A stretch of 55,573 nt of DNA, counting the filler, from Bipalium vagum (Eukaryota), in NCBI GenBank assembly GCA_037834085.1. It is 3 parts of 3 records of this genome, joined end to end, with 100 filler letters (N's around TTAATTAATTAA, not from the genome) between each part and the next. Parts side by side here need not be neighbours in the genome. Positions count along the whole stretch, not along the records: positions 1 to 19,937 come from JBBMKC010263435.1; 2 more parts are not named here. One strand, 5' to 3'. The notes beneath the pieces are model-generated. The model saw only the letters and a list, made by a program, of their open reading frames with translations, was not told the origin of the DNA and made no database searches. Shown here piece by piece: positions 2,521 to 32,711 of this stretch (the stretch's first letter is position 1; every line of letters begins with the position of its first letter). The translations under genes and the position numbers were made by a program.

Positions 2521-2639
2521 CAAAAATTTCCTAAGGATTTGTCCATTGATAAATCAATCTTGCTCAGTTCAACCTAAGTGATCGGTGCTGTTGGACATAT
2601 TTTGAATTATTCGAATACTTATATTTAATATTGATAAAA

Positions 2640-3470: not shown

Positions 3471-5425
3471 TTTAATAATAGTAATAATTGAGTTTATATA
3501 TTTGACTTTATCTCAGAAAATTGATGTTGCAACAGGAACATAAATTAATAAAAAAATTACAAATGTTGATAATCCTATCAGAATATCAGTTAAGATTACT
3601 AAAATTCCTCCAATAAAAATACTTTCTAAATGAATGAAAATTAATTAAATAAAAATCTACAGAAGTATATATAAATTTTAATTTTTTGTAATGTTTTAAT
3701 AAAGCCCTCTAAAACTTTCTAATTTACAAATTTTATCTTTTTATTTTGAAGCAATCTGTAATAGTGTTATTGATGAAAAAATAATTATAAAATTGTAAAA
3801 TTTGTATAATCTAAAATTATAATTATGAACTTCATAAAATTAAAGAACTTAAAACCAAATTGGTTTTATTTGATAAAATGTATTTGATATTCAAAGAAAT
3901 CATAAAATTCATGAAATTTAGAAAACTTTAAACCAAATTGGGCTTATTTGATATTCGATATTGGAAATTGAAAAAACATCGGCTGCAAAGTTGAAAGGGC
4001 CTTGGGACATTGATAAAAATCAAAACCAAGGTTGTGAGGTTTTGGTGTTGGTGTGCCGTTGCCAACCTAAAAAGGAAACAATTAAAACAAATTTGACCTT
4101 GTTTTGCACTGAAAGCCGTAACAAATCTTGGCGTTTCTGACAAATCAATTTGTTAATACTCTTGATTCAGATCAATTCAAAAGGTTTCTAGAATTGTATC
4201 AAAGATTACAGAAAGAAAAATGAAACAATGGAAATGTAATAACATTGAGAGGTAAAACTCTTAAGACTATTCATGCAAGATTTGTTTGTTTTAAGTAGAG
4301 AAAATACATAGATAAAGTAAATCTTCGTTCTGAGGGACATTGGGAAAGTTAAGAAATAATATTTAAGTCATTGCTTTAGAGAATTCATTGTTTTTTCAAC
4401 TACACACCTTTTTTAACTATTAAAATAAAATTCCATATTTTCAGAGGAAAGGCTTTATCAATATGAAATAAGTGGATTACATTAATACACGTAGGTTGCA
4501 TGTATAAAGAATCGTTTTCAATTGGTGCATTTTTGGATTTAATGTTATTTCTCTTATTTTTATAAATCATGAAATCATAATATATCAATGGTTGCTATTA
4601 TTACACGACATTCAATGACAATTGTAATGCTAAAAACAGTTCCGTTTGCATTCTTCCTTAATCCAGTCCTCAACATATAATAGAAAACATTATCGTTCAA
4701 TAATATTATATAGCAAATCATTCAGGACAGTCAAAATTAACATACAAAGTGTGTCATTATAACACCAACTTTGAATAAATAAATGAAAGTAAAATCCGAA
4801 GGGTTTCAAGCCTAGATTATGAGAAAATACAAAATTAACGTTTAACATTAATTTACAAAAAGAGTGTTAGGATTATTTAGGAAATATTGTATGGAATCAT
4901 AACATTCAGAGGACCCCATTTTTTTCACCGTGGATCTAAAGTAGGAAAGAAATTGGTCCAGTTTGTAGCTAAAAAGTTTTGGTCCTATTAAAATTTGCAT
5001 TTAATATTGATTTAATGTTCGAAATTTCAATAAATGAAAACCAATGGGAAAAACTTTGCTTTGCATTTTTTATAAAACTAAAAAAATATAAAACCAGAAT
5101 GATAAAGTCTACACAATTTATTGCTTGATAAATTATGTTAAATCAAATTAATTAATAATAATTAATTAAATCAAAATTTTAATTTATTTAATTTTGAGGT
5201 GTCAAAAATATGAGAATTTTAAAAGTACTTTTGAAAATTTAAAAAAACGAAATAATCAAAAGTACCATATAATCTTCTGAATCGAAGAAAAACCTCTTTA
5301 TTTTTGAGCCTTCGATATGCTCGAGGTGGGACTCTTTAAAGAGTGTCGAAACATTTCTCAATTTGAATTTACTTTTATTATTTTTTTTATATTAATAATT
5401 ATTTTTTTATTAGTATTATTTATTA

Positions 5426-5429
<4 letters not shown>

Positions 5430-5473
<44 letters not shown>
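5430..5473. repeat. (ATT)n microsatellite
   Basis: Uninterrupted attattatt... run. Confidence 0.95.
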
Positions 5474-5474
<1 letters not shown>

Positions 5475-6100
5475 ATTGTAGTTATTAGTACATTGTAGTT
5501 TTAAACCATTTCAAAAAAAGATATATATATTTATATATTGCTTATCTTTTATATTTCTTTTCTTTTGCACTAATGCTCAGATCACATTTAAATACAAAAC
5601 AAAAATTTTCATTTCTCAATTTTCTGTCACATTTATTTACAAAGATAAAACATTAAACAGATAAAAATAACAAACTTTGTTTTGGCATAACTTTCATAAA
5701 AATAAAATCAGATGACAAACTACTTTTTTTAGTAAAATCGCAACCATGTACCATTTTTCTTGTATGATCCTAGCAAAGAGCTGTCGGTATAAATAAATAG
5801 TACATAGGACAGATATGTGGAGGACAAGAAATAAAACGATTTGCAAAATGAGATTTCGAGACATCTGAAGGAAAAAAATAATTATGATTACTGTAAAAAT
5901 AAAAAGAAGACTTTGTAGCACAATCAATTTTCGTTGTGTATCGATATTCTTCGTAACAATGACTGTTACTATCCTGTTACTATACTAATATTGAAAATGT
6001 TTGAATAGCTTCGCCTAAAAAGTTTTGATTTAATGTTTTCTTTCTTATTCTTTTGATAAACACAAGTAGAATTATGCTATAATCCATATTATTTTCGATT

Positions 6101-6179
6101 TATTAGGTTGTCCAGTATGAAATGTCGTTTTTTTTTGGTGCTACTAAAAATACGAAATTTCATACTGGACAACCTAATA
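6101..6179. mobile_element. Ultra-short mariner-type MITE (75 bp between TA target duplications)
   Basis: The left end tattaggttgtccagtatgaaatgtcgt and the reverse complement of the right end (acgaaatttcatactggacaacctaata) match at 27/28. TA lies at both ends, and the TTAGG start is typical of mariner TIRs. Confidence 0.85.
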
Positions 6180-6722
6180 TCACGATTTTCTCACGCAGAT
6201 TCACTTCCACCCAACAATTAGATATTCTTCATTTCACTTCCATCTGCTTCCATCCATCCTGCCTTAGACGTTTTTCTTTCGTTATCGTTAATTCCTGTGT
6301 AATACCAACTTTTCATATGTAGCCTAGAACGAATATTTTTTTATTTCTTTCGAAAGAACAAATCCAGCTTTCCTCTCCGTACACATTTTACACGTCTCAC
6401 AAAATAATCCCTCTATTTTATTTACAAACATACAAGTGCCTTTAAACAAAGAAAAAGTCTCCGGGTGTAATAAATGGACTTTGTAAACGAGATGGAAAAT
6501 ATAAATTAAAATTTGAAACCAGTCCATGATGAAATGAAACAATTTCTTGGTGTCTTAACTTTTAAATCTTCTACTTTCAAATGAATAAATAAACAACCAA
6601 TATAGTAAAGTCACGTATAAATTTTCTTTCGTGTTGGTAAGCATTTTATTATTTTTGTTTTCTTCAATAAAGTACGTATTATATGTTTCAAAATTTAGTT
6701 TATTTTTGGAAATTATAATTAA

Positions 6723-7290
6723 TACAGTGTGTTCAAAAAATATGTATTCCCACTTACAAAAGAATGAATAATTTCATCTACTGATTTATTCTTTTATTTA
6801 TTTATATAAATCTAAGTATATAACACATTTCGGAATCTAATCATATATTACATGATTAACTTTTATTTTTTAAAATCGAATTTGTTTACTGTTAAAAAAA
6901 CATCAAGTCGTTCAAAACGTATATTCCCGTTTACATTTAGTACAAATAATTTAGGAATTTCTTTTTATCAATCAATGTATCAACAATTCTTCTGATGCAA
7001 ATCAAAACTTAATTGGACATACCTAAGATAAACTTCTGAAAAAGCTCCATATCAATTTCATACCAAGCTTTTGATATTACCTCTTTAAGTTCAGAAATGT
7101 TATAGAATTGTCTATTTTCTGAATTTACTTTCCTAACCAAAGCATCCCCACGTTTTCAGATCGGGAATTCTTGGTGCCTAAATCTATTGCGGTAATTTTA
7201 TTTTCTTTAAATTACATTTTGTTGCTCTAGAATCGTAGCATTTTGCAAACTCTTGCTGAAATATAATGGGTCCATTTGGTAGTAAACCAA
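6723..7290 (-). mobile_element. Tc1-family transposon 3' remnant with IR-DR-type terminus
   Basis: TA|CAGTG terminus at 6723. The direct repeat gttcaaaa..t.tattccc occurs at ~6731 and ~6910. The minus strand reads LVRKVNSENRQFYNISELKEVISKAWYEIDMELFQKFILGM (Tc1 C-terminus). Confidence 0.7.
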
Positions 7291-7429
7291 TAAATAATAG
7301 ATTTAATAATAATATCTTTAAAAATAATATCTGTATCCAAAGCAACCAAAAACATAATCAAGTCTACTCTATATTGCCTTTTAGAGACCTACAACGGTTG
7401 CTTTCACAGGTCGTGCCAATAGTTAGCCT

Positions 7430-8030
7430 AACCATTGGACAATCCAGGATAAAGAATAAATTTTATTGTGTAATTGAAGGAAGGATGTTAGATTGGTATT
7501 TAGACCATGGAATGAAATTAATTAAAATTCATAGAAAATTGAAATATTAAAAATCTAGTTGGGTAAAATCTTTCATTGAATTTAATATTGAAAAAAGAAC
7601 TGTGGCAAAGAAAAGTAAAGATGAATTTGGAAAAAAATTTAATAAATTAATGAACAATGGAAAAAATTAGAAAATTTTAGAAATAGATAAAATGTGAAAA
7701 TAGTTTATGAATCTATAAGATTTAAATGGATTGTATGAAAACCTAATTATAAATATTGCACTACTTAATGAAGATATTGTTGCTATTTAATGTGTTGGAA
7801 ATAATGTTAAACATGATAAATTTAATTTTAAAAGATTTACAATATTAAAATTATCTAAATTATTAATGTATCAATTTATTTATGATAAAAGATTAAATGA
7901 GTAGAAAATTCATTATGGAGATACTGATTCAATATTTTAAGAATTACAAATTCCATTCAATTCTAGTTTAGAAAATGAAGTACGGAATTTTAAAGAATAT
8001 ATTCATTCAACAGATTTGAGTAAATTTGTG
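7430..8030 (+). pseudogene. Second, divergent protein-primed PolB relic
   Basis: LDWYLDHGMKLIKIHRKLKY; SWVKSFIEFNIEKR; KFNKLMNN(..)GK (~7640-7665); HYGDTDSIF (intact motif C, ~7911-7937). Confidence 0.85.
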
Positions 8031-10439
8031 GGGACTGCTCCCAGGCAAAATTTGAGATGAAAAACATTTTTTGTGTGATTTTGTGTAACTCAAAAATATT
8101 CCGGATCCATTCAACCTTTTGTGTGATCTTTTGCATGAAAAAATTTTCTTGTATAAAGTTTAATATTGTAAAGTGAAAATTTTATGCATGTGTATAATAT
8201 ATATGTAAATTATTATTGATAAATCCCGAAAACTATAAATTATGAAAAATATAAAATATAATTAATATTCATAGAAATATTATATAAATTAAAATAATCC
8301 TAAATTTAGAGAGTTCAATAAAAATAATTACTAAAAATCAAAATAATAACGAAATAACAAAATAATAATAAAAATTAAATATAGCAAATCTATATTTACT
8401 ATAAATAATTATAAGGTAAAAATTATAATATAAATTAAGTTGCTTTTTAATTAAAACTGGCAAAAAAAACAAAAGAGAAATCGAACAAAAAACAACAACA
8501 ATCATCCTCGAGTTAGAAATTGGATATTACCACGACACCAGTAATTAGAAACGACAATAATATTCTCGCATTGAAGACGACTGCCTCAACTTCAAGATTC
8601 TCAAGTTTCATACCAGCTGTCAACTCGTCAACAAGATATATTGAGAATCGCTACGATCGAAGAGAGAGGAGAGAAAAACCAAGGAGAAAACCAGATTTCG
8701 AGTTAAATAGCAAAGCCAAGTATATTTCGATTTCGAAATATTAAATCCAGTAAACCATGAATCTTCAAAGAACCAGATAATATTCATATTCCGATTCAGG
8801 AATATTTAGAATAATAAAATCGTCAGATTGTCAATCCAAAAGTAATTAATTTTATTTGTATTTAAATCATAAATATCAATTTGATTACAAATTGAATATT
8901 GTGATTAGATTATTATAACTTTTAAATTGCTCAGAATTAAACAGTTGAATAGATCCCCAATATTTTTTCCAAAATCAAAATCATTTTTTTTTGTTCTTAT
9001 TATTTTTTTTGCTTTCTCAACTTCAAGTAGGGCGGAGAAGCGCTTTTTACTTTCGAGGGCTCTTGAGGCTAGGATAGCGAAGAGCATAAACTAAACATTT
9101 CAATTTTTCTCTGGGACTTATCATTAATAATAATACTAATAATGGTGTTAATAATTATATTTTATATTGTTCAACAAAGTTTGATATTTGAATAAAAACT
9201 ATAATATTTAAATAACTCTTGATTTGACTTAGTGATCGATTTTTATTTATCGAAGTATCTTAAATTAAAAAGTCTCATTCACATCTGTTTCAGTAATCAA
9301 ATCAATTAATAATCATCGATTACTTGCACGCAATTTATAGTCACCCAGTCGATTAAAAAATTAAATCAATAAACGCAATAAAACGAACGAGACACACTCT
9401 AAATCCTTCTGATCAACAATAAATTACGTTAATTTTTGGAAAGATATTTAGTGTATTACAGTATTACAACTGAAAACGCAACTGTTCGAATGAAAGGAAT
9501 AACAAGGGTAACAGAAAAGAGATATAATTATGAACACTTTGATAGTTAACAATGAGTTAACAAAACTGTAATATAAAACTATATACAGTTTCAATGTTAA
9601 CAATGATAACACCGAATAAAAAATGTACAAATAAAAAAATAATTCAGTGGACATCTGAATGTGAATAAAAAGACCTAATGTGTATGAGTTCGTCAAAATC
9701 CTGCCGCAATATCCCAGTGACATGATATTACCAAATATTGGCAATATTGATATTTTTATAAGGCTATTGATCTCCAATAGGTTATTATTAATTGGTGAAC
9801 TGTGCCTAATGAACCAATTATACATGTTTGCAGCTCTATTGTGTAATCAGGTTTCAATTTATGAAGTCGATTACATAAATCTGTATATTTTGTTAAATTG
9901 CATTCATTTGATTAGTTAACAAATCTCAAGTAATAATGACCAAGTTTACAATGTTCAACTTAATTATCGATTATTTTATTAATTTGATGAAGTCGTTAAA
10001 CAAACAAAACTAATATTACGCTAAAATACTTTGTAAAGATGTAATATTATTTTTATAATATTATATTATATATATTTTATAATTATTCATATATTTTAGA
10101 TTTATTCATATTTACAAATGAAAACCGATTTAACAGTAACATTTGCAATTATATTAATATTATTGTAAGTATATTAATATGATTATTACTATTGATCTTA
10201 GAACATTCAAGGGATTCTGGTATTTTATATTACCATCATTAATAACGTTTGATCATTGTAAACTTTTGGAAATAGTTTAAAGTAATTATTTTCTGAAGAC
10301 TCATGTTTGTATTAAATGGTTGATATATTACAAGATTTACTGTTTTATTGAAATGGAGTAAATAATGTTACAATTTCGATCAAAGAAAAATATATTAAAA
10401 ATATAAAGTAAAAGGTGACTCCATAATAATTTCTACTTA

Positions 10440-11235
10440 TACAGTACCCTCCAAAATTTTATTCGCCCCTGTAATATATTTACTAATAATTTACTAAACT
10501 AAGTAATTTGTGTTTTAATAAATTAAATTTTAATTATTATTGACTGCATTGTTTAAATAATATTGATGTATGTTAATTATTGAAAATTTTATAATTCTTA
10601 TAGCGTTTATTTCTGTTACTGAATGGCAAGAAAAATATCCAAATATAATAGAAATGTCATAGTTTTACTTAAGAAGAGTAGGAAAACCTGGAATGAAATT
10701 CAATTAGATTTCAGAATCAATATTTCACCACTGTATTTAGACGTGGAATGCAAAAGATTTGGCAAATTTTTTTAAGAACAAACTAAACGAAAGACTTAAC
10801 TCGCATTGGAAGACCCCGAAAGGTAGCAATTAGAATTGAAAAATTACTCATAAGAATTTCAACAGCAAACAATAACCTTTCCATAGCACGAGCATCAATG
10901 ACTTCTTATCTCAAAGCAGTACAACAATATCATCGAGTACCGTAAGAAGAATCCTCAAAAATATGACATTCATGGTAACAGAAGCATAAGGAAACCTTTC
11001 CTATCAATAAGACTAGGACAAAAAAGAATGTTATGGGCCAACAAGCATAAGGACTGGGATTTTAATAAGTGGAAAAATGATGTCTTCAGTGAAGAAAGCA
11101 TTTTCCAGTGTTATAGTCAGTATGGGAAACATTGGGTTTTACGGACAACAAATGACAAAGGCAAACCAGGAAATATGCACCAAACTATGAGTAACGGACC
11201 CAAAATACATGTATGGGGATGCATTATCAGTTATT
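10440..11235 (+). mobile_element. Tc1-family transposon, 5' two-thirds, degenerate
   Basis: TA|CAGT terminus. ATG at ~10623 (MARKISKYNRNVIV), followed by GRPRK, STVRRIL, WANKHKDW...WKNDVFSEESIF and KIHVWGCI. Confidence 0.85.
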
Positions 11236-14200
11236 TTTACTGAATAATTTGGCCTGCTCATATAGATCAAATGAATAGTACGTACCCATATAAAACAAAT
11301 CTGTATTAACTTATCCTTAAATTTTTTGTATGAATTAAAAAAAACTTTTTTGACAAATTTATTTATTAGTTAAGTTAAGAGTTATTGTTCTCATGAGATA
11401 TTTAACGTTTCGCAATCAATAGAAGAAACTTTTAATAGTAATATAGACAAACTATACAGAAAAAAATTTGATTAATATTAAAATTTGTAAAAGGATGACA
11501 AACAGTTATTTGTATTAAAGGAAATTACAACTAAAGTAAATTTGTTTATAAAATTTATAAACCTAAATATATTTTAGACTAATTTATAACTCAAAGATAA
11601 TATTTAGCTACTAAAAACTGGTCAATCTTGACCAATAAAGTTTGAAATATTGAATAAACTAAAAAAATATAAATAATAAATAATATAATAAATTGAAAGT
11701 TTAATATGATTAAGATTCATATTAAAAATATTTTACTTGTTTTAATAATTTTTAAAACTTCAGATTTATAATTTTAATAATAATAAATAAAAATATTCAA
11801 TAATGACAATTTCTTTAAAATGTACATATATATATCGAAGATGTAATTATTACCAATCATTGTCAAAGTGAAATTTAGACCACACGCCATCATTTTTGTA
11901 TGAGAGTGGCAGGAATGCATCACTATAAATCGATATGACATGACATTTTACCTGATGCCAAGAAACAAAACGATTTGCCAAAAGGAGACCGAAAACAAAA
12001 AGTAAGCCTCTTATTATGTAAAAAAATGTAAGTTTCACTCAACTCCGAAAAAGGAATCAAGCACACTATTAGCGGACACTTAATAAATAATCTTATATAA
12101 GAAAAAGGAAGAATAATTAAAAATGCAGTGATAAATAGAAGTGACAATAAAAGTTACTTGAAAAATAGACAAAAACATTTGTTTAGTTTTAGTCCATAAA
12201 TAATTAGATAATCATTATAGAGGTAATTATGAAGGCTTTGGTAACAGAATTAATTATTAATTAAAGTGTATTAATTATACTTTTCTTAATAAATTCCGTG
12301 GCCTAAAATGAAAGATACTCAATTTTTATGGTAATAATTTTTTTAATAGAACGAAATTATTTATTATACCTGTAGCAAAATATGTCCCTCTCAATTTTTT
12401 AATGCATTCGAAAGTGCATTTTAAATTATGTTGAAATGAAAAATATTTTTGAAATCGATCGATTAGATTTTAAGATATTTCAATTTTTATAAAGATTTTC
12501 ACACATTATTTTGTTTAAATTAACATATTAAACATAATAGTAAACTTTTCAAATTGAAATATTTAGATAAAGGTGCAATTTAAAAGGTATATATTTAGTG
12601 TTGTCATGAAATATTTTAATCATTTATAAACTGTTTTAGGTGTCATGAACACAACAAACCATAAAATTAATCCGGACAAGTCCTAAAGAAAATATACTCA
12701 AACCTCTATTGAATAACGTAAATAATAACTATAACCCATAAGTAAGAAGAATATGACAGTTTTTCTAATAACACTTGACGAAATATTAAAGGTCTAAGAA
12801 AAACATTACATGCATTTCTTCTCCTTCATTTCAATTAATAAATAAAGTTGAAAAATAATTATTTATTATAACTCCGTTGGTGTGTACAAGGTATAGGTTG
12901 ATGTTCCAGTGTATTTAATTTTGTAATAATAATAATATTATCATTTCAAGGAAACAATGGTTCCATTGTTCTTCATATTCAATGACATAAAACTGTGATA
13001 CCCATTTTTTAAACGAAAAAATTGCTTAACTTTTATTGTCTATTTAATTTAAATTACAATATAGGTTAATCGATATGTTCTTATATAAAATGGAATATTT
13101 AAATAATATTAATATTATAATAATAACAATAATGTCTTCAAAAAATTTCAAAATTTTAAATTTTCTAAGTAATATTAAATTATTACAAAAGTAACTTTCA
13201 TATTGAATTTTTTATTAAAAAATGATTACTTAATTGTAAAGCGCTCTTTACCAAATCATTCGTGTAATATAAGAACATAACCAATACTTTTTAAAACTAT
13301 TTCTGTCTATTGAGCTTGGACGTTATCTGATTAGACATTATTTTGTTATCATAAATTTTATAATTATGAAACTTTGGCATCAAATCAATACGAGTGTTTC
13401 AAATTGATGTCAGTTGTTCCGATTTAATAATAAATGAAATTATTTTTGAAAAATTAGTCAAATTTGAGTGGATTATTGTTTATATTATGTTGATTTTAAA
13501 ATTGTTTATTGTTACTCTGATTTCTGGTTACCATGGTTTTGATATTTTATTACGGATTTTAGTTACCTTGGGGCTTAACACAAGCATACTGGTAGATTAT
13601 ATTTTTGTACATATGTGTTGTTAAATACATATTGTTCAATGTCGACTTGACCACAATGTGGATAATAATGAAAAACCTTTTGATAAATTAATAGAAAAAT
13701 GTAAGTTTCTATTAACTTGTTTCGAACAAAATTTAAGTTTACAGGTTTTAAAATGTTATAGTTTCTAAAGTTTTAAATAATTATAAGAGGTATTATAATA
13801 ATTTAACATCAGGTTTTTATGTTTATAGAACATCGAATTCCTTTTTTATCCAACCAGATACAAAGCATGACCTTTTGGCTTTGCCACGGTTAATGGGGTC
13901 TCAGAACGTTTTGTCTATAATTGTTTTAATTTTATGGTTATTTTAAGATGATAAGAAAACCGTAGTCTTCATATCATTATCATCAAGTTTTTGAAAGGTT
14001 TACTGTATATGTATTTATTCCGAAACTATATATTTGATATTTCAATCGTTTTTCAATCGAATTTAAATAGAAAATCGTAAACATGTGCGATCTGATAATG
14101 TGGTTTAAGCGAAATTATTATTTATCATTAGAAATTATAATATAGAAAGTTAACTGAATAAATCTGTTTCAGAATTAGCTAACATATTTAATTACTAACA

Positions 14201-15184
14201 TTATAAGTTGAGGACCATTGCAAAAGAATGTGGAAGAAATCAAGGCAACTAGAATGAATGTGTATAAATTGATGGAAGAAGTTAACAGAATTTTATCTGG
14301 TTAAGATAATTTGTTAAATATCAATAGAATTTTTTCTGTATATATTCTGTATAAATAAATAGTTTTATTAAAATACCTTTGTCTTATAATTTTATATTAC
14401 TTTTATAGCGACAACCTTCTTTCATCTTTTTTTAAAATAAAAATAAAATATTTAAGGAAATTGTTCACACACCATTTTTTCAACATCATTCATTGATAAT
14501 CAATCTTTTGTGATTTCTGGTCTATTTGATTTTTTAAAATTTTCTAAAATATTAGATTCTCCTTCTATCTGATAACTTTGTGGGTTTTGTAAATTTTGAT
14601 TATTTTGTGAATATTGATATTTAAGAAAAAAAGTTAAAATAGAAAAGTGAACAATTTTAAACGAATTTGAACGAATATGAGAAAAGAACCAATAAAAGTT
14701 TAATGATTCTCCTGTTTAAGAAAAATTGGAATAATTGAAGGTTTTTAGATTTATTATATATTTCTTTTTAATCTTAATCCAAGTTTAATTGATAATTTCT
14801 AATAATTTCAAATTAAAGTACTAAATTACCAATTGCATTAATATTCTTTTTACCATTTGATGTAAATTAATATTATTTACCACTTTTATAATAGACAATT
14901 ATAATTCACGAATTTTATTAAAAAGGTAAAAGAAATTGATTTAAGAAATCTAAAATTTTATTAAAAATAATTATTTAAATAGTTAAAATATTTGTTTAAA
15001 TAAATTAATATAAGATTTTCATTTTTAAATATTGCAATGGATGATGAGGAAAAGGTATTATCTAAAGCTATGAAAGCTGTATTTAATGAAACTGCTAATC
15101 TTCGAACTCAAATAGCAGCCTTGAATGCGTATATATATAATAAATAAATAAAAGGAATAAAAAATAATCACTTAATCAGTTTGA

Positions 15185-15342
15185 CCATGTCTTACAGCAC
15201 TGGTGCGAAGCCCGGCTTTTGTCTTGAACACGAATCTGGCAACCAAAGTAATCATATTAACACCTTTTAACTGCAGTGTTATTTCCTTACACTGCTGTCT
15301 TGTCATAAATCCACATATGTAACAAAAAAAATTTGAATTCAT
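15185..15342 (-). mobile_element. Cys-rich N-terminal relic of a DNA transposase (FCYICG...YFG...QDKxWAPH type; possibly Sola-group)
   Basis: The minus strand reads NSNFFCYICG...KEIT..LK / YDYFGCQIRVQDKSRASHQCCKT with one frameshift. The superfamily label is from memory and uncertain. Confidence 0.55.
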
Positions 15343-15747
15343 ACTCAACTTCTCTCGTTTACTTATTGTAAACTTTGATCCACGATTCTTACAGACATTC
15401 TTCTTTACATAACTGCATAAACAAATTGCTAAGTTAATTGCTATTTTTATAATATCTGGTGGATTTGATCGTAACTTAATTCATCTTCCTTAAAACCGAG
15501 GTTTGAGTTGTTTACGCCAAAATTTTTATTTAATTGGTAAAATTTAAAAACATTTCATGCAAAGATAACAAATAATTAGATAACGCTTAAAAAATATTAT
15601 GAAATGCATAATAATAATTGAAAAATTATGCTTTAATTTAAAATTTATACTTTAACACAATCGTTATTTATATTATTTAAACAATTAATATTTCTAATGT
15701 AATGAAATATATTACTTGGAATGTACAATATCGTTGAATCTGACATT

Positions 15748-15817
15748 ATAGATAAATAAAGTGGTCAGAGCAGTCCATGCGCATGTGAAGGTCCGGGTTC
15801 GAATCCCAGTATCTCCG
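15748..15817 (+). pseudogene. tRNA-Ala-like sequence (degenerate; CGC at the anticodon position)
   Basis: AGTGGTCAGAGC (D-loop/A box part), CGCATGTG, GGTCCGGGTTCGAATCCCAG (T arm/B box), and TATCTCC 3' acceptor strand pairing with agata. The 5' D-stem strand is not intact, so this is not a functional tRNA. Confidence 0.7.
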
Positions 15818-15835
15818 ATTAATTTTCAACTAACA

Positions 15836-15853
15836 TGGCGACCGCACCAGGAC
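15836..15853 (+). mobile_element. LTR-retrotransposon primer-binding site (tRNA-Arg-like) directly after ...TAACA
   Basis: TGGCGACCGCACCAGGAC is the reverse complement of GTCCTGGTGCGGTCG-CCA. That has tRNA position 59-76 geometry (Y60, C61, G73, CCA), and a CA LTR-type end precedes it. Confidence 0.65.
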
Positions 15854-18372
15854 ACCAACCAGGGGACGATATCTCGAAAGTGCAAAAGTAAAGGAATGGA
15901 ATGGAAATTGAAGTAAAGAGACTATGTTTAACCAATGTCTTTGTTTTAATTAGGTAAACTTATTCTTAACCTTTGGCCTCATTTACAAGGAATAACTCAC
16001 GGAAATGAGATTTTCTTGAACCAAGGAACAAATGTATCACGATTTCCAATTAGTATTTCATCTATTGTCATAACATTTATTTTTAAATGTCATTACGTTT
16101 TAAGGAAATTTCTGTGAGATACTTCAGAAGAATTCAAAAGAATTTCATATATAAATTGTCTATAAAAGGATTTAAATCTATGAAGATTTGAAGACCAATT
16201 TATCAATTTTGACATGGTCCTTGAAAGATTATATTCAGTTCGCTTAATCAAATTTTTATAACAGATGAATAGTTTCAATATGGAAAGAAAACCATACAAT
16301 TTAACTACAATCGTGAATTCTCAACCAACATTAAGAGTATTATTAATCATTGTTACTCAATACTGAATGGGGATAAAATCAGATTAGATATTAATTGTCA
16401 TAAAAACAAATATGAATGATTATTGTGTAATAAAGGTTTTGAGGACTATGATAATACATAATTGCAAATAAAATCGAGTGAAAGGAACGGTATATTTTTA
16501 TTAGTTTTACGCTCCAATCTGTTGCCAATTGTTACTCAAAATAATACCTTGCAAAGATAATTAAAACCTTATGATTAACCATTTCTTTACCTTCAATTTG
16601 ACTTAATTTATGCAAAAGTAATTTCAGAGAATAATTGACCTTATTTGAGAGTTCCATATTTTCATGATGGCACTCTTTCAATTAATAGAAAATTACTATG
16701 AGATCATACACAATCAATTAAGGTCAAGTTGAATGACAAAAGACTTTTGTAGACAATTAGATACTTTAAACTCGATTTTGACAAAAATATCCGGAATCTA
16801 TCAATAAAAAAAGACCTTATATTAACTTAAATATCTCAGTTTCATTTTTTGAGATTTATTACTGCTATCACTATATCAGGTGTAAAAATTTAGTTTTTTA
16901 ATAAAATAAAATATAAATCAGTAAAAAAAATATCTAAGTTAGGTATATCAAAAAATAATAAATTTTTAAAACCGGAAGTAATTACTACCCTACCCTGACA
17001 ATTCGAAAAAGAAAAGAAGTTCTTAACTCCGTTGGGACAGGATTAGGAAGATGATTAATAAATACATATACATTAAGCAAAAAAGTACGAAACATTGTTC
17101 CATTAACTGTCCGTGTTGGTTAAAAAATAAAATTGTAGAGCTGCTACTAATATTAGGAAAGGTGAATTAGATTTTATTGCTGAATGAATTGATAATAAAA
17201 TGGATTGTCGTTTGCTGAGATTGTCTAAAAGCTATTTTGGTCCATTTGTATGCAATTGGTAAATTATAAACTGACCAAGTGGGTCCGATATTCAATAATA
17301 AAGGAGAACAAGTTTCACCAACTAACACTATGTTCTTCTCATCTTTTACGACATGATGTAACAACATTTGTTGACTTGTAAAAATATGAATTTACTTCAT
17401 TTAATAACAAGCGAAAATATCATTGGTTGTCACCAAAATGGTAGAATGTAATATAAATCATTCACTACGAGTTTTTCGGCAAGAGTAAAACCACCAATTC
17501 TGGTTTGTATTAAAAACAACTTCATAGAGTAAAAGATTTACTGCTTCAACAAAAAGGCCCAAAAACAAATCACAAATAAATTTATTATCACACGATAAAT
17601 CAAACGCATATCGCAAAACTATAGCAGATCGACAAAATTCTCTGCATTTTTCTAGGCTTAACTAGACATAATTTCGTTACCGATTCATTCTTTACGTCTA
17701 CCAGTGAATGGACAAAGGAATGATAAGCCCCTGTTTTAAAGACGTTGGGGAATAAATAACCATTTTCATGGTGATAAATGTCAAAAAATGTATAAAATAA
17801 TTAGGTATTTTAAAATATATTCACCAAATTTATATCACATATAAATTTTCAAATATATAATTATAGAAAATTATATTTCAGACTGGATTATGTAATTTTT
17901 ATCAAAATTTAAAGTTTATGATTGTTAGTTACTAAGACGTTATCCACTGTTTCAGAATTCAAAAAACTCAAGATTTTGTAACATTTTTATTTGAAGAAAA
18001 TAATTTTATAGGTTTAATAAGTGCTCTCTTTTTATTCTTTGTTTAAACAAATTAATTATCTAAAACTATTTAAAATTAATTTTTTAAAAAACTTAGGTGG
18101 TATCGCCAAGAAATTAAGTAATTGGTAGAAAAAAAGATGGCATCGAATTATAGAAACTGGTGAACTATATTTCGAGGATTATTGTGATCTGTGTTTAAAA
18201 ATTGTAAATTAAGTATTTGCTTAAAACATTAATAACTTCTAACTCAACCTAATAATATCCTTTGGTTTGTCGTGGAAAATGTGCAAGCAGAAGATAAATA
18301 TTCGAAGATAACTGCTATTATATTCAAATTCAAAAATAGATAGTATTTTTTGTGACACTTTGATCAATAATC

Positions 18373-19937: not shown

Positions 19938-20037
19938 NNNNNNNNNNNNNNNNNNNNNNNNNNNNNNNNNNNNNNNNNNNNTTAATTAATTAANNNNNNN
20001 NNNNNNNNNNNNNNNNNNNNNNNNNNNNNNNNNNNNN
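19938..20037. other. Assembly gap with artificial TTAATTAATTAA linker
   Basis: 44 N + ttaattaattaa + 44 N; the same layout occurs at 39483. Confidence 0.95.
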
Positions 20038-22360: not shown

Positions 22361-23139
22361 CTATTTGTTGAAAACAACCTTATTTTGATAAACGACTAAA
22401 TTATCACTCAGGGTTTCCAACAATGGTAATTGATCCATAGATACTGACACAATATTTTCATCTAGGATATTTGAAAAGTTGTCATCAGACATAGGAAAAG
22501 TGCAATTGGATTGTGTATTGGGATTAAAGGAACCGGTTGATAAGGAAGAACACAAAGAAGGAGGAGGTCTGCTATTACAAAAGCCATTTGTAATAATTCC
22601 AGGCCGATGACAGCAACATGGGTTATTGTTGGTTGAGGACGATGTTCCGGAAGAACCATAATAAGAATTATAGTGATATAAATGACAAGGGGGACAGAAT
22701 ACTGTATTATATCCATTGCATTGATGTGGTCCATCATAATAAATTTGATGTTGATGGGAATATGGGATATTGGGGTTAAAATAAACCGGGGTGTGATCTT
22801 GTAACACATTTGTTGGTGTTTGACAATTCATCGCATTAAACGAGTTGTTTCCAGAATTCATACAAGGGGCATTATAAGAGGGATTATAAAAAGGTGGTAG
22901 TTGAGATTTTGTTTGATCTGGGGGTATTGAGGGGCTTTGAGAATGTGAAAAATAATGTTCAAGTTTAACTGCTGCAGTTTTCGATAACGAAGAATAATTG
23001 TTCTGGTTAAGTTGATTAGGATTCTGTTCACCATTTATTTGTGTATTACTTTTGGCTGAAGTAAGAGAACCAATTCCAGAACTGACTTCAGAAAGAGCTC
23101 CAATCACAGATGAGATCTCATTGTATTTTGAATCTTCTT
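22361..23139 (-). CDS. gli: Gli/Ci transcription factor, terminal exon (Ser/Asn/Pro-rich activation region, stop TAG)
   Basis: Acceptor tattcag| is phase 1, matching the upstream exon. The frame is open for 259 codons, with an acidic/hydrophobic tail DDNFSNILDENIVSVSMDQLPLLETLSD. Confidence 0.8.
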
Positions 23140-24556
23140 CTGAATAGATAAATAAAATAAGATAATTTTCCTTAAACAAGCAAAGATTTTAGAAAAACAA
23201 ATTATAGTATCAGGCCTTCAAAAATGTATGCTTGTTTGCAAATACCCTAAAAATATTAATTTTTATTAATAAAACATAGTCACTTATACATAACAAGAAT
23301 TATGATTATAGAAAAGCATTGTTATTTTGTTTAAATATATTAGTTTAAAAATTAAGGTACACAAATAAGCAAAAAAATTAAACATGTTACAGTTTTGTTT
23401 AAATCTGGTGAAAACACTATTAAAATTCATCAACATCTATGCAATTTAAACCAAAATGAGACAATTGATGTCAGCAGCGTTAGAATATGGATAAATCGAT
23501 TAAAAACGAAGATGTAAATATATTAGACAAGTCAGACATTTAACTTAAATGAAACCATTAAAATGCTGTAAAACGAAGGTACAAAAGCCAAGATAAGCAG
23601 TTTTAAGAGGTTGCTTTTACCAATTTAAGTGAATTAGACAATTAAAGATGAACAAAGTATCGTGTGGGCATACAAAAGAATTTATTTTGGTTACGAGAAA
23701 ATACAAGATGAGAAAACACTGATATCAATGACAAAAAACATGTTAAAGAAACCTTTAAGGTTGTATAACCTCATCAAATAGTAAAAAATATTATAAAAAA
23801 TAAATAATAATAAGATACAAAATTATAAATATAATTCTAAAAATTCAGTCTTTTAAGTTTTTAAAAACTTTCACATTGAAGTTCGCACAATGATCTGTTA
23901 GGTACCATCTTAAAAAGTTATGAAAAATATAACAATAAAAGATATTATTATTTTAAACTTGAATATTTTTGAGAAGGTATATTATAAGCTTTCAACAGCC
24001 TTTTTATCCGTAAAAGAAAAGAAACAGACTTGAATTACTGTTCTTTGAGGAATCCTAACGATTCGCTAAAATCCCGCTAATCTTTGTCATTTTTTATCCA
24101 ACTTATATTATTACGGGTTTCAATTTTCTATTATTTATGTAATCAAATTTATGATAATCAAATTCCATTTCTGACTCTTCATTGTGTCACATTAATTAAT
24201 AAAGTTAGAATAAATTCTAGAAGTTATTGTACGTTTTGAGTCATCAACTAAAGTTCAATTATTACAATTAAACAGTAACCGATAAATCCTCAAGTGAAAT
24301 GTAACTAAATACAATCATAAGATAAAGATTATTAAAAAGCATCATGGGGAAGGTAGAAGAAACTATTGAAGACAATCTTCTACTGATCCAGACAGTTTAT
24401 TGAAATTTCTACGACTTAAGAATAAAAATATATAAATAAGATGGTAATCACAGATAACTTTTAATTAAACAAGTGATCACTATAAAAATGTGTGACTGGA
24501 GAATTATTATTATTATCTTTAAAATATATGATTGATATAATAAAATAATAATTTAC

Positions 24557-24683
24557 CCAACTTATTGATCATTTCAGTGGTCAAATTGCTGCTATCAGAA
24601 ATTAATTCTGTTTTGACATTCAGCCGGTTTGTCATGCACTGATTAGACGTATTTGATCTGACAGCAATGACTTGACCATTATT
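24557..24683 (-). CDS. gli: Gli internal exon (127 nt)
   Basis: ttttatcag|AAT...TTG G|gtaaat. Open frame NNGQVIAVRS...EMINKL; phase 0 in and phase 1 out join both neighbours. Confidence 0.75.
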
Positions 24684-25673
24684 CTGATAAAATTACATAT
24701 ATATTAAAATAATTACATTTCATGAAGTTAAGATAACTCTAAGATACTATAACTACAAGACATTTGAATAATGTAGGATTAAATTAACCAAAAAGATAAG
24801 GCTAAGGAAATGTTAGATAATGAAAATCTATAATGAGAATAAATTGGATTTTTCAACTTTTCGTGAACATAATCTAAATTGTCCATCTTGATATTATAAT
24901 ATCTTTATTCCTTGAAATATAACACAAAACGACAATGAAGATAATTAAAACTCTTATCAGCTTTTTCTTAATAAAAATAAAAATAATTGTTTTATTAAAC
25001 AAGGTTTACAAAGTTTTTAATTCATATTACACTTAAGAATAACGTCACAAAAAAATTTAAAGAATCTAAAAACAGTATTAAATGTTTTTTGAAGTGAAAT
25101 TTACTAATTATTGATTTTAATTAAAATAAATAATAATAACAATAAAAATAATAATAAAAATAAAAATAATAAAAATAATAAGTTATGGTATACCTAATTT
25201 GACAAAATGAATGCAATAATATTTATTTATGCAGAAAATAGTTTCATTTTGAAGAATTTTATCGTAAACAGGACAGGAAAGAAATTAATTAAACCCAGTA
25301 AGAGGAGCAGCTGGTCAAAGTAACAAATATTTTGTAACTAAAAATACAGGCTGCGATCTTGAAATTTAACTTGTATCAGATTTCTTCTATAGAGTATATT
25401 TGAGGTTTTATAAATTTAATGAAGTTGGCAAATTAATTGGATTCATTGATTCTAAGTGAGAAAACAGGAATTATTATAGATTTTCAATCACATGGTAAAT
25501 TTTTTTCTGAAACCATTTTTTTCGAAAGGAATGTATTTTTAATTTCATTAATGAAAAGATTAGGCCAGGACTGATCCTGAGACAGAACCAATGTAATTAG
25601 ACAGGAGAACAATTTTAAGAATTATTTTGATAAATTTTAATTATTTTTAATTCACTTATTGACATTGATGTAT

Positions 25674-25678
<5 letters not shown>

Positions 25679-25736
<58 letters not shown>
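25679..25736. repeat. (ATT)n microsatellite in Gli intron
   Basis: Pure ATT run. Confidence 0.95.
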
Positions 25737-25739
<3 letters not shown>

Positions 25740-25867
25740 TTTATTATTATTATCATCATTAAAACCATAAATCTCTAAGGTCAAACTAAATTATGGTCAA
25801 TGTTAGATTATTATATTGTTAATAACCTATAAATATCTATGTCCTTTTATATATTAATATTAAAAAT

Positions 25868-26640
25868 ACCGGTTGTATCAACACAGAGGAAAAAAGTAAA
25901 TGAGGAATAAAAGGGACAAAAAATGTTATTAATAATAAATAACATATACAGTAAATGGAATACATTTGTTTTCCCTATATATTATGTTCTCGAAATGATT
26001 TCTTTTAACAAATAACATTAACTCAATTCTTCATGGGAAGGACAATATTGGGGTTTTAAGCTTTTTGATAATAACAGGTTTCATGGTTTATTCGTTTTTC
26101 CATTTCAAGTAGATCTTTCGGTTTTTGGTAATGAAAACCTTTAATAAGAGTACCCAAAAAATAATAATTAACTAGTGTGAGGTCAAAGGCAAGACATCTT
26201 GTTTCTCTAAAGTCACAGTCCAAATTAGACCATAGTCATCTATTTTCAGTCCATGAAGCAGCTGTATTTAAGAAAATTTAATGTCTCTTCTTTTAAAATT
26301 TGTTGGACCGAGGCAGGTGGAATATTAGTTTACCGTGATAATCTTCGAATTAATGTCTTTTCTCCATATTAGCAATTGAAAATTTAATGTTGGTTTTATG
26401 TTTGTTCACCAAAGAACGCCGATAATGAGATATATTGACAACACTTCAAGTTTTCTCAAACTTCTTCACAAGTTTGGTAAATGCAGAACATGCATATAGG
26501 ACTTTAATCAAACCTCTTTGGCATTTAATTTCCCTAATTGTAGTTCTAGGGAAAGTTCCACTGCCTAAATAACATCGAGTTAATTCAATTTTCAAATCTA
26601 GATTCATACCTAAATATAAAATATTTTTCATCAGTTATTC
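25868..26640 (-). mobile_element. Highly degenerate Tc1/mariner-superfamily (maT/rosa-like) transposase relic
   Basis: The minus strand reads TKLVKKFEKT*SV...IRRLSR*TNIPPASVQQILK (paired-type HTHs). Boundaries are approximate. Confidence 0.5.
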
Positions 26641-26833
26641 ATTTAAACAAAATATATTTTTATACAAAATTGACAGTCTATTTTCTCGGTTTTGATGCAA
26701 TCGGTATGTTAAATTATTATAAAAATAATGAAATTATATACTTTAATATTTAATAAATCAAATTAAATTTAAGGTGAATATTAATCCAATTTAATTAATG
26801 AACAAATAAAATATAAAATATTTTTTCACAAAC

Positions 26834-27142
26834 CATGTCTAATGAATCGATTCCTAAAATGTCCTCATCGTCTTCATCAAAAATGAGTGAATCGTTATTA
26901 CTGAGGTTAGTTAAAATATTAAATGCTACATTGTGGGGGCTTAAATTATCACTCCAAGCATTTGTGGTATAAGCTGATGAAGGGGTATGTAAACTATTAG
27001 AGTTTGTTCGATTGAGATTTTCTGATGGGTTTTTCACTGAAGCTTGATAATCCCAATTATATTTTTCATGACCATTACCGTCTTGTTTTGTTTGACATCG
27101 ATCACTCCAACTTTCTCCTTTCATTTTCTTATCTGCATAGAT
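26834..27142 (-). CDS. gli: Gli exon after zinc finger 5 (NLS-like, acidic stretch)
   Basis: tctcatag|IYADKKMKG continues HGPQ, as in Ci HGAEFYANKKHKG. Donor ATG|gtttgt; 309 nt, phase 0/0. Confidence 0.9.
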
Positions 27143-27889
27143 CTATGAGAGATAATAAATCAAAATCTGTTTTATCTATAAAAATCCAGTAATTATATCT
27201 GTAAATGTATAATTTGTAAAATGGAAACATCGAAACTATTAAATCATTAAAACTGAAATTTCAATAATAATGTGAACTGACCAGCAATGAAATGCGGGAA
27301 TTTTTTGGTTTTTGAAATTAAATGATACAAATAAAATATTTCTTTAGCCTAACTGAAAATTTTAATTTTTTTTATATTTTCACACAATTTATTACAAATT
27401 CTAATTATTGGCAATGGATTATTTTCAGTTTTTTAAAAGTTAGGTGAGATATTTTATTTTTCATTGAGTAGACAAGGTTTTGGTGTGCCTTCAAAATAAC
27501 AGTTCCTACATTTATGATAAATTGTTTTAGGCCCATAAAAAAATAAAAAAACATATTCCTTTAGGAAAGATAACGGAAAAAATTAATATATTGATTAATT
27601 CTGTTCAAGCAATTTTATAAAATATTGAAGTTTCAGTAAAAAAATAATAAAAAATATAATAAAGCAAAATAAATACTTAACAACCAGTAAGGTTTTATAA
27701 AATAAAATTATAAAGGTCATTTTATAAATCCATGTAAGATCTTAAATTTTTTCTGAGTTGCTAAACCTTAGAACTCAATTCAGTGCTATTTAAAACAAAA
27801 ATATTGAGTTGGCAAGAACATAATTTCCGATTTTACATAAAGACAATTAACTTCAATTTACTGTTTTAAATAAAAATAATCATTGTTTA

Positions 27890-28930
27890 AATACTATCAG
27901 ATAGGAGACGGATTCAAATTAATTTAATTAAATCAATTTAATTAATTTCATAGAATGCCTTTTTTATGTCAGCTTTAGTATGGATGATCGAAACACACAT
28001 TTGGGACATATTTTTCCTATTATTGGAAAAATTGAAATGTACAGCGAGGATACATTATAAAAAAGTCAGAATTTGGTTTGAGAAATTTTAAAGGGTTGAC
28101 TTTTCATTTAATGATAAGCAACGATACGATCATTTAATAGATGTCAATGAAGACAAAATCAAAAAGTTAGTCAATGAGGATCGTCACAAAACAATATGTG
28201 GTATGCATCTAAACCTATATCAAGTATATAGACTACAAGAGAAAACTCGATTTATGAATTTTTTACAAACATAAGAAAAATCCCACTAGACAACAGTTTG
28301 AAGTCTGTGATTTGCTTATCATAAGGAACAAAAGAGTCGTTTTGAAAAAGTTGTTAAGGGGACATGAAAAGTAGATTTGCTACAATAATGTTCATCGAAA
28401 AAGGTCATGGTGCAATTCAGAGGAAGCAGCCAGACGTCCAAAACTAATAATTATTAAATTATTGATTATAATTGTTAGCAGCTATTTCAATAAAGTCACT
28501 CATAGTTTCAAAAATTTTTAAAAAAGATATTTTAAAATTAAATTAATATTTTAAAATTAACTAATACATGAATATCCATATTGGATTTTAAAAAGGACAC
28601 TTTATAAAAATTTAAAAATTCAAAAATATGTTCAAATACTCACAATAATCATCAAAAGAAAGTTATGTTATGCGTTTGGCGGGATTATCAAAGAATCATA
28701 TACTTGGAAATCCAAGTAAAACGCCAAAAATGGCAAACCTTAAAGGCATTGTTTTTCAACATGACAATGAAAAAACACACTTTTTTGATAAATCAGTAAA
28801 AATTATTGAGTGGGCCACATTCACAATATACTTTAGAACTTGCCTTTCAAAAGAAAATTAACTTAAATCCGACTTAATGCAGTTTTTACAGATGAACCTA
28901 AGAAGTTTTATAAACTAGGACTTTTAATGC
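27890..28930 (+). mobile_element. mariner relic in Gli intron (antisense to Gli), interrupted by an AT-rich insert
   Basis: WFEKF; LVNEDRHKT; GHEK*ICYNNVHRKRSWC; GIVFQHDNEKTH; MLPGRWQ. Confidence 0.8.
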
Positions 28931-28980
28931 TTCCTGGAAGATGGCAACCTCACAATTTAATAAAAATTTATTTTTTCATA

Positions 28981-30282
28981 TACAATATCTGGCAATAAAT
29001 AATAAGCCACCTTTCTAAATCTAATTTTTCTCATTCCAAGTTATTTTTATTATTTAAAAAAAAGATTTTTATAAAAAATTTATTTGAATAACAAAGCAAC
29101 ATTTTTACATTCGAATAAATGAACATTCAGTATTTAGTGTATCACCCGCGTGCTTTGATAATACTATTCATGCGACTGTGCATTAACAAATCGATTGTCG
29201 ATTGTGGAATTTCGAGCCAATAATTAACCAGAATAGTACATAAATCACTGAAATTGGTTGGTTTACTCCCTTTCATTGATTTGAAAAGGATTTTCCATAA
29301 GTTTTCAATGGAGTTCATATCTGGGCTTTGGGGTTGCCAGTTCACACTAACTCCTTTTTCTTGCAAAAAATTCGTAACTCTTTTGGCCTTATGGTACGAT
29401 ACATTGTCTTGTTGAAAAATAAAGTCATGCTGTGCACCAAAAAGGCTTTCACATGAAGGTAACATCGAGTTCTGTAAGATTTTTATTTACTGATGCTGGT
29501 TTACAGGTCCGACCCATCGATGTAATTCGACCATTCTAAATCCAGATGTGAAATTTCAAACCATTAAACTACCCATCCCATGTCTTACTGATGGAACGCA
29601 GCATTTCTTTTTAAATCTTCATCAATACGTCTTTTAACGAACCTTCTAATAGAACCAGAAAACAATTAAAAAGAACTTTCGTTACTAAATAAAACTGATT
29701 CCCAGTCATTGGCAGTCCAATTTTTATGAGTATGAGCAAACGCCAAAGGTTTTGCAACATTTACTAATGACAGTCGGAGCTTTTTAGCTACTATTCTTCC
29801 GGCTTCAAACTGGCTTCTTTCAGTCTTTTTCGAACTGTTCTTTCCGATAAATTTATACAATAGTCAGTTTTTTTCGTTGTTGTACTGTAGCTCTCGATTC
29901 TCTAGGGATGATCTGACAAGAAGACAATCTTCCAGGTTGATCATCTTTCTAGGTCTCCCAATCTTCTGAATTTCTTTTACTGAGCCAGTCGCCTTGTACC
30001 TCTTCACAATATTCTGTACAATTCCTCGACTTGTATTGAGCTTCTTTGCAATATCTCTTTCATGAATTCGGTTTTCAAATATAAATACGACGCGCAAACG
30101 CACTTTGTCTGATAATTTCCGATAATGCCTCATTTCTAAAAATGAAAATATTTGATAATACTTCCTTGATACAAAATCAAGGAAATATTGTGTATAGGAT
30201 ACACTAATAAGAACAGTATAATGAACCAAATCATGAATGCATAATATTGCTGGTGGCTTATATCTTTTTGCCAGGTATTGTT
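28981..30282 (-). mobile_element. Full-length ~1.3 kb Tc1 element with both TIRs, transposase frameshifted
   Basis: TIRs caatatctggcaataaataataagccacc (28983) and ggtggcttatatctttttgccaggtattg (ends 30280). Protein motifs: GRPRK, WESVLFSNESSF, FQQDN, WQPQSPDMNSIENLW. Confidence 0.92.
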
Positions 30283-32355: not shown

Positions 32356-32403
32356 CTTTAAAAATATTAGTAAAAAAATGATTAAGTAATCATAATTAAA
32401 AAC

Positions 32404-32660: not shown

Positions 32661-32711
32661 CTAAATAATAGTTTTATTTTTTTTAGTTAAAATCAGTGCA
32701 TTAAAACAAAC

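What the first reader, a model, noticed from the sequence alone, without database searches (positions are those of the whole stretch)
15698..15860. tRNA-derived sequence immediately 5' of an LTR end and PBS: possible LTR element carrying a Pol III (tRNA) module in its LTR
Seen: AATAAA runs into a tRNA-Ala-like body (AGTGGTCAGAGC...GGTTCGAATCC...TATCTCC, 15748-15817). An 18-nt spacer ending TAACA follows, then TGGCGACCGCACCAGGAC, an 18-mer with the geometry of a tRNA 3' end (59-76). Its acceptor strand (GCGGTCG) is Arg-like, so it is a different tRNA from the embedded one. Known: LTRs end in CA followed by a TGG-starting PBS, and plant Cassandra TRIMs carry a Pol III gene (5S) inside their LTRs. 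Inference: this is the 5' end of a retroelement whose short LTR (possible start TGTAA at 15698) has captured a tRNA A/B-box promoter, i.e. a SINE/LTR hybrid. No gag/pol or second LTR is visible here.
Basis: partly seen in the sequence, partly recalled or inferred. Interest (0 to 1): 0.7.

Follow-up and report, generated by a model that had tools for sequence, protein, structure and literature searches.

The report
Planarian tRNA-bearing mini-retrotransposon fragment
This is a broken 164-base piece of a very abundant repeat in a planarian flatworm, likely a miniature retrotransposon that would use a borrowed tRNA-gene promoter, a kind described in 2024 from other animals and fungi but not listed there for flatworms.

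Summary
The motifs are real, but this is a fragment, not an element's 5' start. The host is a triclad planarian. Contigs of a run holding this locus show 15760-15923 is a piece of a very abundant family. Summed depth over the tRNA-like unit is 133,000-160,000 against 18-24 in single-copy flanks. 217 contigs leave the window right after the CA at 15835, as LTR ends do. The PBS and short internal part are shared by many copies, and 10 contigs run from there back into a second B box. That is the two-LTR, non-coding anatomy of Helenus TRIMs (Kojima 2024), whose tables list no flatworm. This copy lacks the first half of the A box, most of a second LTR and any TSD. TGTAA at 15698 lies in a separate upstream repeat. 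The primer is likely tRNA-Arg (15 of 18 to a human Arg PBS); no host tRNA was available. The scan found this family before on other DNA, as solo LTRs (two notes in this genome, one in another planarian); this locus adds the PBS and internal part. Pol III transcription is untested. New member of a known kind.

The parts
15760..15835 (+). 3' portion of the 5' LTR: second half of the A box (15760-15771), degenerate anticodon arm, B box (15796-15806), acceptor 3' strand (15810-15816), 19-nt tail with a T4 run, ending in CA
   Evidence: Motifs. Summed contig depth 24,845 (15740-73), 133,067 and 160,080 (15774-15841) against 18-24 in flanks; 217 contigs continue behind 15835 into low-agreement AT-rich DNA. 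5' part missing: 60 contigs carry a complete tRNA 5' end before 15763.
15836..15853 (+). Primer-binding site directly behind the LTR's CA, likely for tRNA-Arg
   Evidence: 15844 reads A in 41,185 of 41,388 depth (109 contigs). The reverse complement matches the last 18 nt of a real tRNA gene at 17 of 18 (L003, a tRNA-Trp of a metagenome contig). 13 of 18 (window) and 14-15 of 18 (family variants) match the human tRNA-Arg PBS quoted in PMC11905727 (counted by hand).
15854..15886 (+). Rest of the short non-coding internal region (about 51 nt with the PBS if the 3' LTR starts at 15887)
   Evidence: Depth about 14,000 at 15850-67, falling to 3,366 at 15880-85; 6 of the 11 go-back joints leave at 15879-15887.
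15887..15923 (+). Purine-rich 37 nt, likely the first bases of the 3' LTR of one subfamily (alternative: 3' part of the internal region, just before a G-rich PPT); the copy ends here
   Evidence: 15887 reads T in 2,125 of 3,307 depth (24 contigs), which gives TG at 15887-88; depth rises again to 4,200-5,100 at 15886-15909; 5 contigs begin at 15884 with long unrelated left flanks; depth is 24 from 15928 on; 17 contigs go on behind 15923 with a G-rich stretch, and 4 joints from 15902-15923 return to the B box.

Best explanation
Window 15760-15923 is a truncated copy of a very abundant planarian repeat that is likely a miniature non-autonomous LTR retrotransposon (Helenus-type TRIM), whose tRNA-derived A and B boxes would drive RNA polymerase III transcription and whose primer-binding site would let a Gypsy helper's reverse transcriptase copy it from a host tRNA, likely tRNA-Arg. 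Shown: the repeat's abundance, its sharp CA end, the PBS behind it, a short non-coding internal part and a second B-box unit in other copies. Inferred: Pol III starts at the tRNA 5' end in the 5' LTR, reads through the weak T4 run, the PBS and the internal part, and stops in the 3' LTR; a Gypsy particle packages, copies and integrates the RNA; LTR-LTR recombination then leaves the excess of solo LTRs. This copy has lost the start of its promoter and most of its 3' LTR and is likely dead.
For:: 2149 contigs laid on 1 kb; depth 133,000-160,000 over 15774-15841 against 18-24; 217 contigs leave at 15835 with agreement 0.44 (many unrelated flanks); depth 30,568 over 15842-75, about a fifth of the LTR part, within the LTR:internal ratios of Helenus Table S3; 10 of 14 listed joints leave at 15879-15923 and return to the B box, and in the 4 contigs whose in-between letters are given these number only 25-38; 174 contigs share the internal part, which ends sharply at 15923. 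The family's tRNA 5' end and box motifs fit the Helenus description. Internal length of 51 or about 90-100 nt lies in the Helenus range (43-621 nt). No RT or Gag motif in the window (one stray D-T-G-S 38 kb away). Over 90% of planarian LTR elements are Gypsy, and animal Helenus share PBSs with Gypsy.
Against: No complete element with two matching LTRs and a TSD was seen: the tool prints only short pieces of contigs, and each joint is one contig. This copy has no TSD and no second LTR in the window. The LTR's 5' TG and the PPT are unsettled: only 9 of the 12 bases before 15887 are purines, and the stretch behind 15923 shows no TG. The contigs that share 15887-15923 go on into a different anticodon-arm variant than this copy's 5' LTR carries, so the copy may be a subfamily chimera. 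No host tRNA was checked. Summed depth is not a copy number and may include true tRNA genes. X1 may be the data set behind this assembly.
Confidence: 0.8

Rival explanations
1. The tRNA-bearing LTR belongs, at least in some copies, to a full-length autonomous Gypsy element, and the short forms are its deletion derivatives.
For: An 18-nt PBS is typical of autonomous elements, whereas many listed Helenus pair over only about 9-12 nt. The internal sequences diverge after about 15875 (depth 14,000 to 3,400), and for 7 of the 10 post-PBS joints the length in between is not given.
Against: All 4 contigs with known in-between letters reach a second B-box unit within about 120 nt of the PBS start (table 5c). 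No coding motif follows in the window. Kojima argues autonomous partners need Pol II and share no LTR sequence.
Confidence: 0.07
2. The unit now spreads as tandem LTR-internal arrays or circles, and this copy is one re-inserted, circularly permuted monomer and not a doubly trimmed element.
For: The copy starts in the A box and ends a few bases before the point where relatives enter the next tRNA-like unit, so its two ends nearly meet on a circular map; no TSD. Tandem arrays are known for LTR-11_DR and Cassandra.
Against: Two independent deletions, or a short-read misjoin, give the same picture; the anticodon-arm variant differs between the two ends' relatives; the left junction is not among the 8 listed pieces, and the right junction is covered with only 30 letters on its left (bar: 31).
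Confidence: 0.08
3. An ordinary tRNA-derived SINE or tRNA pseudogene that landed beside an unrelated PBS-like sequence.
For: About four fifths of the depth over the tRNA-like unit has no PBS behind it; flatworm tRNA-derived SINEs exist (Sm-alpha).
Against: The unit ends at a fixed CA, with no poly(A) or simple-repeat tail in the consensus; the PBS follows with zero spacing in over a hundred contigs (109 show the 15844 variant); a second unit follows the internal part.
Confidence: 0.05

Closest known systems
Helenus (tRNA-containing TRIMs, 'TRIMp3'; Kojima 2024, PMC10886601)
   Same: tRNA-like A/B-box unit near the LTR's 3' end, short T-rich tail ending in CA, PBS directly behind it for a different tRNA, short non-coding internal part, LTR excess over internal parts, several subfamilies in one genome (against 19, 21).
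   [quoted passage not shown] This PBS type is not among those of Fig. S2, whose Arg primer is the TCT isoacceptor with another 3' end. This copy is a fragment without TSD.
Cassandra and Ajax (5S rRNA-containing TRIMs)
   Same: Pol III promoter inside the LTRs of a non-autonomous element; tandem arrays known.
   Different: They carry 5S-derived, not tRNA-derived, sequence; hosts are plants and nemerteans. Only Cassandra has shown Pol III transcripts.
ta-TRIM of taeniid cestodes (Koziol 2015, PMC4558846)
   Same: Flatworm TRIM with TG...CA LTRs, PBS, PPT and many solo LTRs.
   Different: 198-bp LTRs, about 590-bp interior, Leu PBS, polyadenylated transcripts; no tRNA module is mentioned in the section read; not detected in Schmidtea.

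Membership tests
Helenus / TRIMp3 | tRNA-derived sequence with A and B boxes inside the LTR | tested here: met
   B box and second half of the A box in the window; complete tRNA 5' end in 60 contigs. The Ala label rests on recall.
Helenus / TRIMp3 | LTR ends in CA, directly followed by a PBS | tested here: met
   217 contigs leave at 15835; PBS variants in 109 contigs.
Helenus / TRIMp3 | LTR begins with TG | tested here: inconclusive
   TG at 15887-88 in 64% of depth with boundary signs; 15698 rejected; no whole LTR was seen.
Helenus / TRIMp3 | Two LTRs around a short internal part: in the family | tested here: met
   10 of 14 joints return from 15879-15923 to the B box; 4 contigs with 25-38 letters in between. 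Identity of the two LTRs within one element was not measurable.
Helenus / TRIMp3 | Two LTRs and a 4-bp TSD: in this copy | tested here: not met
   No second B box, tail or PBS in the window; no 4-, 5-, 6- or 8-bp direct repeat at the ends. The copy is filed as a fragment, not as a complete member.
Helenus / TRIMp3 | 4-bp TSD in intact or solo copies of the family | not testable with these tools
   No genome held; both flanks of other copies cannot be read. Note e1-9935073 claims 4-bp TSDs in another planarian (unchecked).
Helenus / TRIMp3 | Polypurine tract before the 3' LTR | tested here: inconclusive
   9 of 12 purines before 15887; a G-rich run behind 15923 in 17 contigs is the alternative.
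Helenus / TRIMp3 | Non-coding and under about 1.3 kb | tested here: met
   No RT or Gag motif near the site; second unit within about 120 nt of the PBS in 4 of 4 contigs with known letters.
Helenus / TRIMp3 | PBS complementary to a host tRNA 3' end | tested here: inconclusive
   tRNA 3'-end geometry shown on a non-host tRNA (17 of 18); human Arg PBS 13-15 of 18; host tRNA set unavailable.
Helenus / TRIMp3 | Transcription by RNA polymerase III; Gypsy helper with the same PBS | not testable with these tools
   Needs RNA or ChIP data and the assembled genome.
Functional tRNA gene | Complete cloverleaf | tested here: not met
   ARAGORN 0 genes; no Rfam tRNA hit; fold z +1.57.

The most novel reading that the evidence does not exclude
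Planarians carry the missing parent of Helenus: an autonomous Gypsy element whose own LTR holds the tRNA promoter cassette, from which thousands of Pol III-driven miniature copies were cut and which spread partly as tandem arrays or circles.
Probability: 0.07. Interest if true: 0.6.

Novelty: new member of a known kind. Interest (0 to 1): 0.25.

Why it matters
It extends Helenus-type TRIMs to a seventh animal phylum and supplies the PBS and internal part that earlier solo-LTR notes lacked, which moves the family from 'tRNA-like repeat' to TRIM. If copy number is in the thousands, it would inflate tRNA-gene and SINE counts in planarian annotations. Planarians allow RNAi and have well-studied piRNA pathways, so they could give a first experimental test of Pol III transcription for any Helenus; Kojima calls Cassandra the only validated TRIMp3. 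The mechanism itself is in print.

Tried and rejected
LTR start at 15698: a gapped resemblance between 15690-15765 and 15880-15930 scores 22, reached by 1054 of 4355 background windows and 906 of 2000 shuffles; depth is 164 at 15706-39, two contigs of the upstream repeat end at 15706 and 15712, and no joint links that repeat to the tRNA unit. Second LTR or nested split in the window: none. Whole-genome search: no genome held. Expression: no RNA holder listed. LTR/PBS junction in viral contigs: 0 matches. Primer isotype by pattern scan: 3 metagenome matches, 1 of 3 called as a tRNA (Trp), 1 tRNA-like but uncalled, 1 apparently chance; this shows geometry, not isotype. Host lineage by the MARK KA1 exon: unresolved, 57-66% to many animals; settled by Gli. 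Earlier findings by sequence and by relatives: nothing. A recalled precedent, Pol III transcription from the Drosophila mdg1 LTR, was not among the 4 papers listed and stays recalled.

Full report
Observation. All quoted motifs are in the window and occur once as a set: the A-box-like 12-mer at 15760, the B box at 15796, TATCTCC at 15810-15816, TAACA ending at 15835 and the 18-mer at 15836-15853. The tRNA-like body is recognisable only from 15760, not 15748. In 200 dinucleotide shuffles of the window the combined pattern never appeared, and a bare B box appeared 0.175 times per shuffle (post hoc pattern). The unit is not a tRNA gene: ARAGORN finds none, Rfam gives only a 13-nt T-loop hit, and 15746-15820 folds worse than 189 of 200 shuffles. 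No second copy of the B box and tail, the PBS or the internal part lies in the window, even with 4-10 mismatches. Six simple RT, protease and Gag patterns gave one stray hit, at 53896.

Host and setting. The window holds a Gli gene whose best matches are Dugesia japonica (224 bits, 67% over 99% of the query) and Schmidtea mediterranea (201 bits); the third hit scores 137. The host is therefore a triclad planarian, apparently neither of these species. The last Gli exon ends at 22364 on the minus strand, so the site lies about 6.5 kb downstream of it. The MARK exon did not resolve the lineage.

Copy number and boundaries. No genome is held, so I laid the contigs of the one run that holds the locus (X1, 0.84 of the words) on 15400-16400 at 80% likeness. 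2149 contigs were laid. Summed depth is 18-24 in single-copy flanks, 164 at 15706-15739, 24,845 at 15740-15773, 133,067 and 160,080 over 15774-15841, 30,568 at 15842-15875, 5,220 and 1,557 to 15943, then 24. The tool warns that this is no copy number; the order of magnitude still points to thousands of copies (inference). 217 contigs continue behind 15835 into sequence with only 0.44 agreement, the mark of an element end in many different flanks. 60 contigs carry, before 15763, a complete tRNA 5' end with the first half of the A box, which this copy lacks; that it is of Ala type is recalled, not tested. Only 6 of 182 loose ends and 8 of 2188 pieces were shown to me.

The PBS and what follows it. 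The PBS is a family feature: 109 contigs show a variant at 15844 that holds 41,185 of 41,388 depth. Of 14 listed joints, 3 are skips, 1 goes back from 15837, and 10 leave at 15879-15923 and return to 15789-15801, that is, to a second B-box unit; each is one contig. In the 4 contigs for which the letters in between are printed there are 25-38 of them, so the second unit lies within about 120 nt of the PBS start; for 7 of the 10 the length is not given. A second laying on 15838-15990 (174 contigs) shows shared sequence up to 15923 and depth 24 from 15928. 17 contigs go on behind 15923 with a G-rich stretch that leads, by the joints, into an A-box-like and then the B-box sequence. So other copies are LTR, PBS, short interior, LTR, and this copy stops at 15923 without a TSD.

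Where the 3' LTR starts. Two parses remain. In the first, the 3' LTR starts at 15887: most depth reads T there (2,125 of 3,307, 24 contigs), giving TG; depth dips to 3,366 at 15880-15885 and rises to 4,200-5,100 behind it; 5 contigs begin at 15884 with long unrelated left flanks; 6 of the 11 go-back joints and record 4 end at 15879-15887. The interior would be about 51 nt, like fish (43-48) and brachiopod (58-60) Helenus. Against it, the PPT is weak, 9 of 12 purines. In the second, the interior runs to a G-rich PPT behind 15923 (about 90-100 nt), but no TG follows. I favour the first. Either way the element is miniature.

TGTAA at 15698 is one of 103 on the + strand. A resemblance between this region and 15887-15923 is at chance level.

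Primer. The reverse complement of the 18-mer matches the last 18 nt of a real tRNA gene at 17 of 18 (L003, called Trp; 1 of 3 pattern matches), which confirms the geometry but shows that the isotype cannot be read from it alone. A human PBS that GtRNAdb assigns to tRNA-Arg (PMC11905727, passages) matches the window at 13 of 18 and the family's variants at 14-15 of 18, with the first 10-11 bases identical (hand count). Arg is likely for an animal; the host tRNA was not available. The primer differs from the embedded unit, as in Helenus.

Mechanism. Shown: abundance, fixed CA end, PBS, short interior, second unit. Inferred from Helenus and Cassandra: Pol III starts at the tRNA 5' end in the 5' LTR and reads through to the 3' LTR; a Gypsy helper supplies RT and integrase; recombination leaves solo LTRs, which explains the roughly five-fold excess of LTR over PBS depth (Helenus Table S3 shows similar ratios). 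Gypsy makes up over 90% of planarian LTR elements (bioRxiv 10.64898/2025.12.11.693146, passages). This copy, with half an A box and no complete 3' LTR, is likely inert. Its two ends nearly meet on a circular map, which leaves a permuted-monomer origin open, but double deletion or a misjoin is as simple.

Comparison with print. Kojima 2024 (PMC10886601; whole main text; supplement parts 1, 10, 11 of 11 and a term search) defines Helenus as TRIMs with tRNA-derived sequence in their LTRs and lists six animal phyla, none of them Platyhelminthes. The known flatworm TRIM, ta-TRIM (PMC4558846; abstract and one results section), differs in size and primer. Searches for Helenus, TRIMp3 and planarian TRIMs or tRNA repeats listed no report of such an element in planarians; passages of PMC13570524, PMC12859917, PMC2770079 and PMC2888827 and of the Dugesia genome preprint (0 hits for Helenus or TRIM) add none. 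That preprint's supplements, Repbase, Dfam and most subscription papers were not seen and may already hold the family.

Earlier findings. Notes e1-9171435 and e1-9202378 (this genome) and e1-9935073 (another planarian) read similar units as Helenus-like solo LTRs. I had reached the Helenus reading before seeing them; they gave me the planarian lead, which I checked. I could not check that they are the same family, nor their TSD claims.

Verdict. A real, truncated copy of an abundant tRNA-bearing TRIM family in a planarian; the family works like Helenus and meets the features that could be tested, while TSD, PPT, 5' TG and Pol III transcription remain open. New member of a known kind; interest 0.25.

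Noticed in passing
window 15470-15712: A separate moderately repeated element (summed depth 140-1,760 against about 20) with internal skips of 71 and 74 nt in other copies; it lies upstream of the transposase-like relic below and may be that transposon's end.
   Followed up: partly
window 15170-15370, minus strand: Frameshifted relic with a Cys-rich FCYICG motif that resembles, from recall, the N-terminus of a DNA-transposon transposase (Chapaev-like); no Pfam hit.
   Followed up: partly
window 22364-38746, minus strand: Gli-1 gene, six matching segments against Dugesia japonica and Schmidtea Gli.
   Followed up: yes
window 43525-55136, minus strand: MARK/PAR-1 kinase exons: KA1 domain at 43525-43839 and UBA region at 54867-55136.
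   Followed up: partly
window 29142-30328, 46264-46668, 48910-49236, 10902-11243: Tc1/mariner-type relics: DDE_3 and HTH hits at 29142-30328 (inside a Gli intron), Mos1-type HTH at 46264-46668; the other two look similar by eye but had no Pfam hit.
   Followed up: no
window 6101-6179: 79-bp element with 34-nt arms, 94% complementary, 11 nt apart; MITE-like.
   Followed up: no
window 19938-20037 and 39483-39582: Two assembly gaps written as 44 N, a 12-base AT-only linker and 44 N; an artefact of the assembly, not sequence.
   Followed up: no
window 16439-16530: Weak Rfam match to snoRNA snR60/Z15 (21.5 bits, gathering 41, E 3), with C- and D-box-like ends; probably chance.
   Followed up: no
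run X1 contigs laid on window 15763-15797: At least three anticodon-arm variants share the same B box and tail, so several subfamilies coexist; one seems to have a shortened A box.
   Followed up: partly
L001 151-262, minus strand: tRNA-like sequence with a long insert in a metagenome contig, not called by ARAGORN.
   Followed up: no
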